Shown here piece after piece: positions 6,220 through 7,853 of a stretch of 64,000 nucleotides of DNA (positions are counted from its first letter, which is position 1; every line of letters begins with the position of its first letter). Source of the DNA: Nitrospirales bacterium. Its GTDB lineage: Bacteria; Nitrospirota; Nitrospiria; Nitrospirales; UBA8639. The stretch covers positions 4,000,001 through 4,064,000 of the forward strand of contig OY820905.2 in assembly GCA_963555755.3 (NCBI GenBank), read 5' to 3'. A program made the translations under genes and the position numbers. The notes under the pieces are model-generated. The model saw nothing but the letters and a program-made list of their open reading frames with translations. It ran no database searches and was not told the DNA's origin.

Positions 6220-6296
6220 TCATTCCAATAGCCAATAAAAGCTCCATATGAGCTATGGATCATCAACGGGAGGGAATGTTCAAAAAAGCATGCCCT

Positions 6297-7510
6297 TGTA
6301 TAATGCAAGGAAGGGTTGTAGGCCAACTCACCCGAGCTGCCTCTTGTCTGAAGAGGGCATAGCCAACGTAGGGAAAAGGCTGTACCCTCACGGTATTGTG
6401 AATCCTGGCATGATAGACCGTTTGCCCTATGGGAATCAGCCCGTGACTCAGCGCAGGTCGTCATGCCCTTTCTCTGATGAACCCGAACGGTTGCCTGGGA
6501 CACCAAGCCCGTATCAACAAGGTTGGGAGACAGAGCGATGAAATCAAAATCCTCAGAATTGTTTATCGGTATCGACATTTGTAAAGCTCGATTAGACGTG
6601 GCAGACAATGCCAATTCGCTTCCCTGGTCGGTAGCCAACAACGACGCCGGCATCGCCGCGCTGGTGGAGCGGCTCCACGTCCTTCACCCCACTCTCATCG
6701 TGATGGAAGCCACAGGGGGGCTGGAAACGCTTCTGTATGCGGCCTTAACCACCGCCGGGTTGCCGGCGGTCGTCATGAATCCCCGTCAGGTGCGGGACTT
6801 TGCCAAGGCCCTGGGCACCCTGGCCAAAACCGATGCCCTGGACGCCCGAATCTTGGCTCGCTTCGGGGCGGCGATCCAACCGGCGGTCCGGCCCATGAAA
6901 GACGCCACCACCCAGGAATTGACGGCCTTGGTGACACGGCGACGGCAGTTGCTTGCCATGCAGACGGCGGAAAAAACCCGCTTCCAGCAAGCAGCCAAAT
7001 GGATCCGCAAAGATATCAACGCTCATATCGCCTCCCTGGAAAAACGGCTCCACACAATCGAAGGTCATATTGCCGAGATTATTAAACAGACCCCCGGCTG
7101 GAAAGAGAAAGATTCGCTCCTTCGAAGTGTGCCGGGGGTGGGCAACGTCTTGTCAATGAATCTCCTCAGTAGCCTGACCGAACTCGGGACGCTCAACCGA
7201 AGAGAAATCGCCACGCTGGTGGGCGTTGCCCCCTTAAACCGCGACAGCGGAAACGTGCGCGGCAACCGAAGGGTCTGGGGAGGCCGGGCCCAAGTCCGCG
7301 CCGCCCTCTACATGGCGGCCCTGTCCGCATCACGATTTAATCCGGTCATCAAACCCTTTTACCAACGCCTGATTGCACAAGGGAAAAAACCCAAAGTGGC
7401 CCTCACCGCCTGTATGCGAAAACTTCTGGTCATTCTGAATACGATGGTCAAAACCCAAACAGCATGGAACCCAAATCAATATTCAACCCTTGACTTTAAT
7501 CACGGTTGCT
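6297..7510 (+). mobile_element. IS110-family element (bridge-recombinase type)
   Basis: Flanked by CT core (6295-6296, 7509-7510); removal restores GCATGCCCTGAGTCTTTCCGAAGGG, seen uninterrupted at 45205-45229; long non-coding left end. Confidence 0.92.
6311..6530 (+). ncRNA. Predicted IS110 bridge RNA (boundaries approximate)
   Basis: Two stem-loops (6407-6467 and 6471-6530) with internal loops matching the target (TGCCCT, GACTCAG) and the donor junction (ACGGTTGC, ACAAG). Confidence 0.8.
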
Positions 7511-7512
7511 GA
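6538..7512 (+). CDS. IS110-family recombinase/transposase
   Basis: DEDD RuvC motifs [33 protein letters not shown] catalytic serine; [12 protein letters not shown]. Confidence 0.95.
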
Positions 7513-7853
7513 GTCTTTCCGAAGGGTCTATCCAGCAAGGCCGCAGCCATTTTGACGCGCGGAGCGTACTCTCAGTACGTGAGCACGGCAAAAGGGCCAG
7601 AACGCCGCTGGCGGCTTTTTTCAACATTCCCCTTGTCATTTCTCCCAAGGGTCAAAATGACAGACCCGAGGTGACCACGACTTGTGGTATTGCACCATGC
7701 ACCCCAATAATCTTACGCGGCTTTTTTTGCGCCCAATCGTCGTTTCTAGGCTCATGAATTCTTGACCATCCTTCTGCATGGAGCAACAAACCGAAGTCGG
7801 CATTTTCAAAGAAAAGGATAACCAAGGATTTTGAGTGTAAACCCTCCTTTTTA

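What the first reader, a model, noticed from the sequence alone, without database searches (positions are those of the whole stretch)
6295..7516. Complete IS110 bridge-recombinase system with readable guides, aimed at a REP-like hairpin carried by a MITE
Seen: the element sits between two CT cores, and the empty site GCATGCC-CT-GAGTC is present at 45205-45218. The non-coding left end folds into two stem-loops. Loop 1 (stem 6407-6419/6456-6467) displays GTTTGCCCT (6420-6428; last 6 nt match the left target plus core) and GACTCAG (6445-6451; exact reverse complement of CTGAGTC). Loop 2 displays ACGGTTGC (6487-6494; matches the element right end ACGGTTGCT) and ACAAG (6517-6521; reverse complement of the junction CTTGT). 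Established: this is the IS621-type bridge RNA architecture (target- and donor-binding loops, CT core). Inference: this is a new natural orthologue with intact DEDD and Ser residues and a 7-nt right target guide, programmed against a multicopy repeat.
Basis: partly seen in the sequence, partly recalled or inferred. Interest (0 to 1): 0.85.

Follow-up and report, generated by a model that had tools for sequence, protein, structure and literature searches.

The report
Intact IS110 bridge-RNA insertion sequence
This is an intact IS110-family insertion sequence whose own non-coding RNA carries loops matching its insertion site and its own ends, so it is predicted to guide its recombinase to one short site in a dispersed repeat; it is an ordinary new member of the known bridge-RNA class.

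Summary
Window 6297-7510 is a 1214-bp IS110-group element between two CT cores, and the empty site is at 45205-45218. It encodes a 324-aa recombinase with both IS110 Pfam domains. The DEDD and Ser residues align with those of IS621. The 241-nt left end holds a bridge-RNA scaffold of two internal loops; 19 of 23 consensus pairs keep pairing through compensatory changes across 53 relatives.

All 11 full copies in the genome sit in the same site, GCATGCC-CT-GAGTC, and 72 more such sites are empty. In relatives the right target guide tracks the right flank: 100 of 110 non-core positions match, against a shuffle maximum of 61. The left guide tracks the left flank: 206 of 287, against a maximum of 168.

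A TTGACT-17-TATAAT promoter forms only across the circle junction.

The target is not a REP-like hairpin (-1.8 kcal/mol, no better than shuffles). It lies just inside the terminal inverted repeat of a MITE-like repeat.

Activity, RNA expression and the circular form were not shown.

Verdict: a new member of a known kind, of modest interest.

The parts
6272..6296 (+). Left arm of the MITE-like host repeat. It comprises the terminal inverted repeat GGGAATGTTCAAAAAAGC (6272-6289), the left target GCATGCC (6288-6294) and the left copy of the CT core (6295-6296).
   Evidence: Sequence. The same arm precedes all 11 full copies and the 72 empty sites.
6297..7510 (+). IS110-group insertion sequence, 1214 bp counted with one CT core (7509-7510). 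It has no terminal inverted repeats.
   Evidence: The genome holds 11 full copies at 97-100% identity, one 92% copy cut at its right end, and one 3' fragment. The boundaries are fixed by comparison with the empty site.
6297..6304 (+). TG plus TATAAT (6299-6304): an extended -10 box at the very start of the left end.
   Evidence: It pairs with the -35 box at 7490-7495 only when the right end is joined to the left end, with a 17-nt spacer. No promoter-like site lies upstream in the integrated state.
7490..7495 (+). TTGACT: the -35 box of the predicted circle-junction promoter. It lies inside the last codons of the recombinase gene.
6407..6467 (+). [quoted passage not shown] The outer stem is 6407-6418/6457-6467 and the inner hairpin is 6431-6433/6440-6442. 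The left target guide is GTTTGCCCT (6420-6428) and the right target guide is GACTCAG (6445-6451).
   Evidence: Folds. The guides match the flanks, and both guides covary with the flanks in relatives. The guides are invariant in the 11 full copies and in the 92% copy.
6482..6527 (+). [quoted passage not shown] The outer stem is 6482-6484/6525-6527 and the inner hairpin is 6497-6499/6508-6510. The left donor guide is ACGGTTGCC (6487-6495), the right donor guide is ACAAG (6517-6521) and the handshake base is G6522.
   Evidence: One search gives the structure. One search shows the left donor guide matching the right end ACGGTTG-CT and the right donor guide being the reverse complement of CT-TGT. 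One search shows the base after CAAG is complementary to left-target position 7 in 51 of 53 rows.
6538..7512 (+). Recombinase gene of 324 codons. GGAG at 6526-6529 precedes the ATG. The stop codon TGA (7510-7512) is made of the core T plus GA of the right flank.
   Evidence: Pfam PF01548 at 3.6e-23 and PF02371 at 6e-18. IS621 chain 8wt6_A at 6.8e-35 and ISCro4 chain 9t56_A at 8.5e-37. D13, E57, D99, D102, S237 and G238 align with IS621 D11, E60, D102, D105, S241 and G242. The frame is open in all 11 full copies, with pN/pS 0.08-0.34 against the window copy.
7502..7510 (+). Left donor ACGGTTG plus the right copy of the CT core.
7511..7631 (+). Remainder of the host repeat: the right target GAGTC (7511-7515), the interior, and the right terminal inverted repeat ending in TTTTTTCAACATTCCC.
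45205..45218 (+). Empty target site GCATGCC-CT-GAGTC. It lies in a second variant of the repeat (about 45190-45357) whose interior is inverted relative to the first.

Best explanation
Window 6297-7510 is an intact IS110-group insertion sequence that most likely moves by bridge-RNA-guided recombination.

Shown directly:
- The element encodes a DEDD/Ser recombinase.
- Its 241-nt left end encodes a conserved two-loop RNA scaffold.
- One loop matches the flanks of the insertion site and the other matches the element's own ends.
- The guides change together with the flanks across relatives.
- Every full copy in this genome sits in the same 14-bp site.

Inferred from IS621:
- The element is released as a circle in which right end, CT core and left end are joined.
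- That junction creates a TTGACT-17-TATAAT promoter, which transcribes the bridge RNA and the recombinase gene.
- The target loop pairs with GCATGCC-CT on the bottom strand and CT-GAGTC on the top strand. The donor loop pairs with ACGGTTG-CT and CT-TGT.
- A recombinase tetramer exchanges strands at the CT core through Ser237 and inserts the element without a scar.

The site lies just inside the terminal inverted repeat of a MITE-like repeat. That repeat offers about 85 landing sites, of which 11 hold full copies and 2 hold partial ones.
For: Protein:
- Both IS110 Pfam domains are present.
- It is homologous to the IS621 and ISCro4 recombinases, at 6.8e-35 and 8.5e-37.
- All five catalytic residues and the following Gly are aligned.

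RNA:
- The comparative fold of 53 sequences gives a 12-pair stem enclosing an internal loop with an inner hairpin. A second such unit follows.
- 19 of 23 pairs carry compensatory changes.

Guides in the window:
- The left target guide matches left target plus core at 7 of 9 positions, the last 6 contiguous.
- The right target guide matches 7 of 7, the left donor guide 8 of 9, and the right donor guide 5 of 5.

Covariation in relatives:
- Right target guide against right flank: 49 of 63 aligned rows were usable, and 36 of the 49 match at 5 of 5 non-core positions.
- Over 22 distinct right target guides, 100 of 110 positions match. Shuffles gave a mean of 37.6 and a maximum of 61, and 0 of 10000 reached the observed value.
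- Left target guide against left flank: 53 of 63 rows were usable, giving 41 distinct guides and 206 of 287 matches. Shuffles gave a mean of 142.8 and a maximum of 168, and 0 of 10000 reached the observed value.
- The donor-loop handshake base is complementary to left-target position 7 in 51 of 53 rows, including 4 A:T and 3 T:A cases.

Site use in this genome:
- 11 of 11 full copies, the 92% copy (left junction) and the 3' fragment (right junction) all lie in the same site. The loci and the repeat variants differ.
- 72 empty 14-mers exist.

Signs of recent activity:
- All 11 reading frames are open, with pN/pS 0.08-0.34.
- The guides are invariant among the copies.

Promoter: the junction promoter is present, and no promoter-like site is found upstream in the integrated state.
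Against: - Nothing experimental was available. The runs I could lay were assembled contigs only. They showed no joint running from the right end back to the left end (a circle junction), and they cannot show strand, ends or expression.
- Rfam 15 has no matching family.
- The folding energy of the left end alone is not better than that of shuffles (z -0.52).
- Positions 2-3 of the left target guide do not pair with the target. The last base of the left donor guide (C6495) does not match the core T.
- The right ends of relatives were located with the left donor guide itself, so donor-guide agreement is partly circular. The right-flank test is not.
- Relatives are kin, so shuffle counts overstate independence, although rows were collapsed to distinct guides.
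- One copy (C1:343015-344222) has a 6-nt deletion at 6478-6483, beside the donor-loop stem, and may be RNA-defective.
Confidence: 0.9

Rival explanations
1. The copies spread passively. The host MITE-like repeat, carrying the insertion sequence between its inverted repeats, would be moved by the repeat's own transposase. Alternatively, copies would be passed between repeats by homologous recombination, rather than by RNA-guided insertion of the element itself.
For: Every copy lies inside a repeat with intact-looking inverted repeats. The repeat family is large, at roughly 300 core copies.
Against: The occupied repeats are of different variants: standard, internally deleted, with an extra insert, and one with the other type of left inverted repeat. 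A composite that copied itself would carry one variant. Relatives in other phyla sit at unrelated sites that each match their own guides.
Confidence: 0.04
2. Site choice is made mainly by the protein reading a DNA shape or sequence in the repeat, and the RNA complementarity is secondary or incidental.
For: For ISPpu10 a target stem-loop adds specificity beyond base pairing (abstract of 10.64898/2026.03.19.712850). Positions 2-3 of the left target guide are unpaired here.
Against: There is no significant local hairpin at the site. Guides and flanks covary over 22 distinct right guides and 41 distinct left guides.
Confidence: 0.03
3. The family is a recently dead relic. The copies are intact by youth only and no longer move.
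For: No circle junction or new insertion was seen. One copy has a deletion in the RNA gene, and two copies are truncated.
Against: All 11 frames are open although the copies differ by up to about 3%, with pN/pS 0.08-0.34. The guides are untouched, while 82 columns vary in the gene.
Confidence: 0.05

Closest known systems
IS621 of Escherichia coli, the bridge recombinase and bridge RNA (PMC11208160, passages read; PMC11208158, passages read)
   Same: The domain pair and catalytic residues are the same. Both have a CT core and the RNA in a long left end. Both have two internal loops, each with a left and a right guide that include the core. Both have a promoter rebuilt across the circle junction, and both target a dispersed repeat.
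   Different: The proteins are only distantly related in sequence (phmmer 6.8e-35 over about 310 residues). The right target guide is 7 nt (core plus 5) against 4 nt in IS621; the paper notes longer natural guides in some orthologues. The non-coding right end is absent here: the gene runs through the left donor and the core, and its stop codon is completed by the flank. The left end is 241 nt against a 177-nt RNA in IS621.
ISCro4 transposase (PDB 9t56; only the entry title was seen)
   Same: It is the best solved relative by sequence (8.5e-37) and aligns from residue 8 to 316.
   Different: Nothing about its RNA or target was examined here.
ISPpu9 and ISPpu10 of Pseudomonas putida (abstracts only)
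   Same: They are IS110 elements whose copies all lie in copies of one conserved intergenic repeat.
   Different: Their targets are REP-type sequences, and for ISPpu10 a GC-rich stem-loop beside the site adds specificity. Here no significant hairpin adjoins the site, and the carrier is a repeat of about 146 bp with terminal inverted repeats.
IS1111-group elements with seekRNA (PMC11187229, abstract only; PMC11208160, passage read)
   Same: They have a DEDD recombinase and RNA-guided site choice.
   Different: Their RNA lies in a long right end, and sub-terminal inverted repeats of 7-17 bp are present. Here the RNA is in the left end and the non-coding right end is absent.

Membership tests
IS110 family, IS110 group (bridge-RNA insertion sequences) | [quoted passage not shown] | tested here: met
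   82.5 bits against a cut-off of 29, and 65.5 bits against a cut-off of 21.3.
IS110 family, IS110 group (bridge-RNA insertion sequences) | Catalytic D, E, D, D and S present at the positions of IS621 D11, E60, D102, D105 and S241 | tested here: met
   The alignment to 8wt6_A was read against the residue list in PMC11208158. This gives D13, E57, D99, D102, S237 and also G238. The PDB chain numbering is offset by 2 from the paper's numbering.
IS110 family, IS110 group (bridge-RNA insertion sequences) | No terminal inverted repeats; the element is bounded by a repeated 2-nt core (CT); the empty site is restored exactly by removing the element plus one core | tested here: met
IS110 family, IS110 group (bridge-RNA insertion sequences) | Left non-coding end much longer than the right, with the RNA encoded in the left end | tested here: met
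   The left end is 241 nt (6297-6537). The non-coding right end is 0 nt, because the gene ends at the core.
IS110 family, IS110 group (bridge-RNA insertion sequences) | Sigma-70 promoter reconstituted across the right-end/left-end junction of the circle | tested here: met
   One search finds TTGACT, a 17-nt spacer and TG-TATAAT. This is sequence only; function was not tested.
IS110 family, IS110 group (bridge-RNA insertion sequences) | RNA scaffold with two internal loops, conserved and supported by compensatory changes | tested here: met
   53 sequences and 23 pairs, 19 of them with changes on both sides.
IS110 family, IS110 group (bridge-RNA insertion sequences) | Target-loop guides pair with the left target (bottom strand) and the right target (top strand), each including the core, and covary with them | tested here: met
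IS110 family, IS110 group (bridge-RNA insertion sequences) | Donor-loop guides pair with the element's own ends | tested here: met
   In relatives the right end was found with the guide itself, so that part is partly circular. In the window the ends are fixed independently by the empty site.
IS110 family, IS110 group (bridge-RNA insertion sequences) | Circular intermediate, expressed RNA of about 180-230 nt, and RNA-dependent recombination | not testable with these tools
   Only assembled contigs could be laid.
REP (repetitive extragenic palindrome) as the target | Short GC-rich imperfect palindrome that forms a stable stem-loop at the site | tested here: not met
   -1.8 and -2.2 kcal/mol for the two strands, with z +0.46 and +0.48.
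MITE as the carrier of the target | Small size, many copies, terminal inverted repeats | tested here: met
   The repeat is about 146 bp. There are 55 near full-length copies of one variant and about 300 copies of the interior. The 18-nt inverted repeats differ by one mismatch.
MITE as the carrier of the target | Target-site duplication and a cognate transposase | not tested
   The neighbouring IS1595-type element has unrelated ends. A conserved stretch of about 25 nt to the left of the inverted repeat leaves the true left boundary open.

The most novel reading that the evidence does not exclude
The recombinase gene has no stop codon of its own. Only insertion into the cognate site (core T plus flank GA) ends it at 324 codons. 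In the circle the frame stays open for 81 more codons, through the whole bridge-RNA gene, and stops at a TGA that overlaps its own ATG. The circle and the integrated copy would therefore make different proteins (405 versus 324 residues), which would be a built-in reporter of integration state that could bias the enzyme between insertion and excision. The same junction-spanning stop occurs in L014 (also 405), L028 (354) and L057-L059 (372).
Probability: 0.08. Interest if true: 0.6.

Novelty: new member of a known kind. Interest (0 to 1): 0.3.

Why it matters
It gives a clean natural example of bridge-RNA addressing. An 11-to-14-nt address is read by a 7-nt right guide and an effective 4-5-nt left guide plus the core. 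It is used with no exception in 11 full copies while 72 sites stay empty.

The clade of relatives, from Nitrospirota, Dehalococcoidia, cyanobacteria and others, shows at least 22 different right guides. That is a ready-made natural reprogramming series, and a source of compact orthologues (1214 bp, no non-coding right end) for tool work.

It also adds a layer to the mobile-element ecology of this genome.

Tried and rejected
- Rfam 15 at E up to 1 over 6000-7900 gave no family.
- The single-sequence fold of the whole left end has an unremarkable energy (z -0.52). It says nothing either way.
- Sequencing runs: 4 runs were laid, and all are assembled contigs. Contigs from two libraries labelled as RNA cover the element (for example 6269-7148), but DNA carry-over cannot be excluded. 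No joint from the right end back to the left end was listed. The skips near 6287/6288 to 7531/7537 are repeat variants without the target module, not excisions.
- The held supplements of PMC11208160 were searched for the site, the left guide and 'Nitrospir'. Neither the site nor a match to this element was found. The only left-guide hits are in a synthetic oligo row, and two Nitrospirae rows in the tree table are other proteins. File 3 was cut when stored and one PDF had no text, so absence is not shown.
- Local hairpin at the target: rejected.
- The repeat as a derivative of the adjacent IS1595-type element: rejected, because the ends are unrelated.
- The 24-nt target module was searched in 121 genomes of the order. 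It was found in 4, including this genome, which has 73 hits; the other three have 1 each. Most of those genomes are likely draft assemblies, which tend to lose repeats, so this says little.
- The pN/pS script stopped with an error on the twelfth (92%) copy, so that copy has no value.
- No structure prediction or complex prediction was run, because homology to solved structures made them unnecessary.

Full report
**Observation.**
- The left junction reads GCATGCC (6288-6294), CT (6295-6296), then TGTATAAT.
- The right junction reads ACGGTTG (7502-7508), CT (7509-7510), then GAGTC (7511-7515).
- The uninterrupted site GCATGCCCTGAGTC is at 45205-45218, and the identity extends to AAAAAGCATGCC-CT-GAGTCTTTCCGAAGGGTC.
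- The element is therefore 6297-7510, which is 1214 bp counted with one core.

**Protein.** The frame 6538-7509 has 324 codons, and GGAG lies at 6526-6529.
- It carries PF01548 (DEDD_Tnp_IS110, 3.6e-23) and PF02371 (Transposase_20, 6e-18).
- Against solved structures it matches the ISCro4 transposase (9t56, 8.5e-37) and the IS621 transposase (8wt6, 6.8e-35) over almost its whole length.
- I read the alignment to 8wt6 against the residues named in PMC11208158 (passages). D13, E57, D99, D102, S237 and G238 stand at the places of IS621 D11, E60, D102, D105, S241 and G242.

**RNA.** The MFE fold of the left end recovers the stem around the first loop, but its energy is no better than that of shuffles (z -0.52). 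Rfam 15 has nothing. The support comes from comparison.
- The search for related loci returned 77 loci.
- 70 of them had the N-terminal part of the gene. After dropping those with under 175 nt upstream and those with identical upstream sequences, 62 loci plus the window were aligned, giving 63 rows.
- A comparative fold of 53 distinct sequences was run. Rows L016, L051, L072, L077, L079, L083 and L084 were left out as misaligned or truncated, along with identical segments.
- It gives 23 pairs, 19 of which carry compensatory changes.
- The first unit is an outer stem 6407-6418/6457-6467 around an internal loop with an inner hairpin at 6431-6433/6440-6442.
- The second unit is an outer stem 6482-6484/6525-6527 with an inner hairpin at 6497-6499/6508-6510.
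- This is the two-loop architecture described for IS621 (PMC11208160, passages).

**Guides in the window.**
- The left target guide GTTTGCCCT (6420-6428) matches the left target plus core, GCATGCC-CT, at 7 of 9 positions, and the last 6 are contiguous.
- The right target guide GACTCAG (6445-6451) is the exact reverse complement of CT-GAGTC.
- The left donor guide ACGGTTGCC (6487-6495) matches ACGGTTG-CT at 8 of 9.
- The right donor guide ACAAG (6517-6521) is the reverse complement of CT-TGT.

**Covariation with flanks.**
- In each relative, the left boundary was taken as the last TTGTAT upstream of the first loop. The right boundary was taken as the best match (at most 1 mismatch) to the first 7 nt of its own left donor guide plus CT.
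- The donor match is therefore partly circular. The bases beyond the core are not.
- Right target guide against right flank:
  - 49 of 63 rows were usable. The 14 dropped rows are listed.
  - 36 of the 49 match at all 5 non-core positions. The rest split as 7 at 4, 4 at 3, 1 at 2 and 1 at 0.
  - With one representative per distinct guide (22 guides), 100 of 110 positions match. Shuffles gave a mean of 37.6 and a maximum of 61, and 0 of 10000 reached 100.
  - Examples are CTGTCCC, CTGACCC, CTTGAAC, CTTCTGC, CTCCGCG and CTACTGG, each found both as guide complement and as flank.
- Left target guide against left flank:
  - 53 of 63 rows were usable, and offsets of 0-3 were allowed in both the real and the shuffled pairings.
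  - The 41 distinct guides give 206 of 287 matches. Shuffles gave a mean of 142.8 and a maximum of 168, and 0 of 10000 reached 206.
  - The two or three 5'-most guide positions are often unpaired, as they are in the window.
- The base that follows CAAG in the donor loop is the handshake position of PMC11208158. It is complementary to left-target position 7 in 51 of 53 rows. These split as 44 G:C, 4 A:T and 3 T:A, with 2 mismatches.

**Copies in the genome.** The window's genome is 4.62 Mb in 2 contigs.
- It holds 11 full copies at 97-100% identity, one 92% copy that lacks the last 29 bp, and one 355-bp 3' fragment.
- All 11 full copies lie between ...AAAAAGCATGCC-CT and CT-GAGTCTTTCCGAAGG. The 92% copy has the same left junction and the fragment has the same right junction.
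- The occupied repeats are of several variants, so these are separate insertions and not copies of one composite.
- The genome has 72 further empty 14-mers.
- In the left end, the 11 full copies vary only at 6322, 6332 and 6469, apart from one 6-nt deletion (6478-6483) in a single copy. No guide position varies.
- The gene varies at 82 columns, yet it is open in all 11 copies. A crude pN/pS against the window copy is 0.08-0.34 (the twelfth copy failed in the script).

**Promoter.**
- TTGACT (7490-7495) and TG-TATAAT (6297-6304) come to lie 17 nt apart only when the right end is joined to the left end.
- In the integrated state the corresponding hexamers are TGTTCA, ATGTTC and AATGTT.
- The consensus scan finds no promoter-like site upstream of the RNA.
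- This is the arrangement reported for the family (PMC11208160, passage).

**The target's setting.**
- The site lies 16-17 nt inside a repeat of about 146 bp. Its terminal inverted repeats are GGGAATGTTCAAAAAAGC and GCTTTTTTCAACATTCCC.
- There are 55 near full-length copies of that variant, and about 300 copies of the interior.
- A 24-nt module, GCATGCCCTGAGTCTTTCCGAAGG, carries the site. It follows the inverted repeat in 66 empty and 11 occupied cases. Many other repeat ends lack it.
- A second variant has the module at the other end, with the interior inverted.
- The site is not a hairpin of note. As DNA, the 41 nt around it fold at -1.8 kcal/mol on the + strand (132 of 200 shuffles as good) and -2.2 kcal/mol on the - strand (138 of 200).
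- 'REP-like hairpin' is therefore not supported, while 'carried by a MITE-like repeat' is.
- The adjacent IS1595-type element has unrelated ends.

**Activity.**
- Of 24 runs listed, 4 were laid, and all of them are assembled contigs.
- No joint from the right end back to the left end (a circle junction) appeared.
- Contigs cannot show strand, ends or expression, so activity remains inferred.

**Comparison and novelty.**
- All sequence-level defining features of the IS110 group are met. The biochemical ones could not be tested.
- A 7-nt right guide is longer than the 4 nt of IS621. However, the paper that defined bridge RNAs states that some orthologues have longer ones, and it predicted bridge RNAs in 85.7% of IS110 elements.
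- Repeat targeting is classic for the family (abstracts of PMC1525189 and PMC12288879).
- The exact protein is already in public collections, without a name in the look-up.
- I did not find this element or its site in the held supplements of PMC11208160, which are incomplete.
- It is a new member of a known kind.

**An oddity.**
- The stop codon TGA (7510-7512) consists of the core T and two flank bases.
- In the circular form the frame would run on for 81 codons through the whole left end, to a TGA (6539-6541) that overlaps the ATG.
- L014 behaves the same way (405 codons). L028 would stop after 30 extra codons and L057-L059 after 51. Most relatives have an internal stop 17-20 nt before the core.
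- This is probably just extreme compaction, but a circle-specific longer protein is not excluded.

**Earlier notes of this scan.**
- One note describes the dispersed repeat as an ERIC-like hairpin core in several wrappers. My variants agree with the 'several wrappers' part, but I did not test the ERIC likeness.
- Another note describes a group IIC mini-intron that homes to the same repeat. I did not test that.

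Noticed in passing
window 7510-7512 and 6297-6541: The stop codon of the recombinase gene is made of the core T plus GA of the target flank. In the circular form the frame would stay open for 81 more codons through the bridge-RNA gene, ending at a TGA that overlaps the gene's own ATG. 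Junction-spanning stops also occur in L014, L028 and L057-L059.
   Followed up: partly
window about 3053-6228: There is a tandem array with a 1078-bp period, holding at least three copies of an IS1595-family element of about 1025-1030 bp (PF12762 and PF12760). Each position of the copy is covered by about 44-48 BLAST hits in the genome, the window's own tandem copies included. It ends about 45 bp before the host repeat of the IS110 element. Its ends are unrelated to the repeat's inverted repeats.
   Followed up: partly
window 6272-6296 + 7511-7631; 45190-45357; genome-wide: The host repeat is modular. A 24-nt module carrying the IS110 site sits just inside either terminal inverted repeat, depending on the variant, and many copies lack it. 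Interiors occur in both orientations and with extra inserts. A conserved stretch of about 25 nt often precedes the left inverted repeat.
   Followed up: partly
genome G000, 14 places (not in the window): Half sites GCATGCC-CT-CGCGG lie next to the repeat's inverted repeat. They have the left target and core but a different right target. None of the element copies has this right flank.
   Followed up: no
window 7666-7736 (-) and 45794-45890 (-): A second dispersed repeat has about 160 BLAST hits in the genome. A copy of it forms the right flank of another IS110-family lineage, which has 3 copies at C1:193213, 563393 and 2045258.
   Followed up: partly
genome G000: There are 21 matches to PF01548. 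Twelve belong to this element, and the other nine point to several further IS110-family lineages.
   Followed up: no
G000:C1:343015-344222 (copy of the element): This copy has a 6-nt deletion corresponding to window 6478-6483, just 5' of and running into the donor-loop stem. It is likely an RNA-defective copy with an intact gene.
   Followed up: no
window 7596-7621: A terminator-like hairpin followed by a T-run (GCCAGAACGCCGCTGGC GGCTTTTTTC) is formed by the right end of the host repeat, downstream of the recombinase gene.
   Followed up: no
L014 (Nitrospirota MAG, 90% protein identity): The closest relative sits in the same kind of repeat, at the same site. The site differs by one base at a position that its guide does not pair with: GCCTGCC-CT-GAGTCTTTCCGAAGGGTC.
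   Followed up: partly
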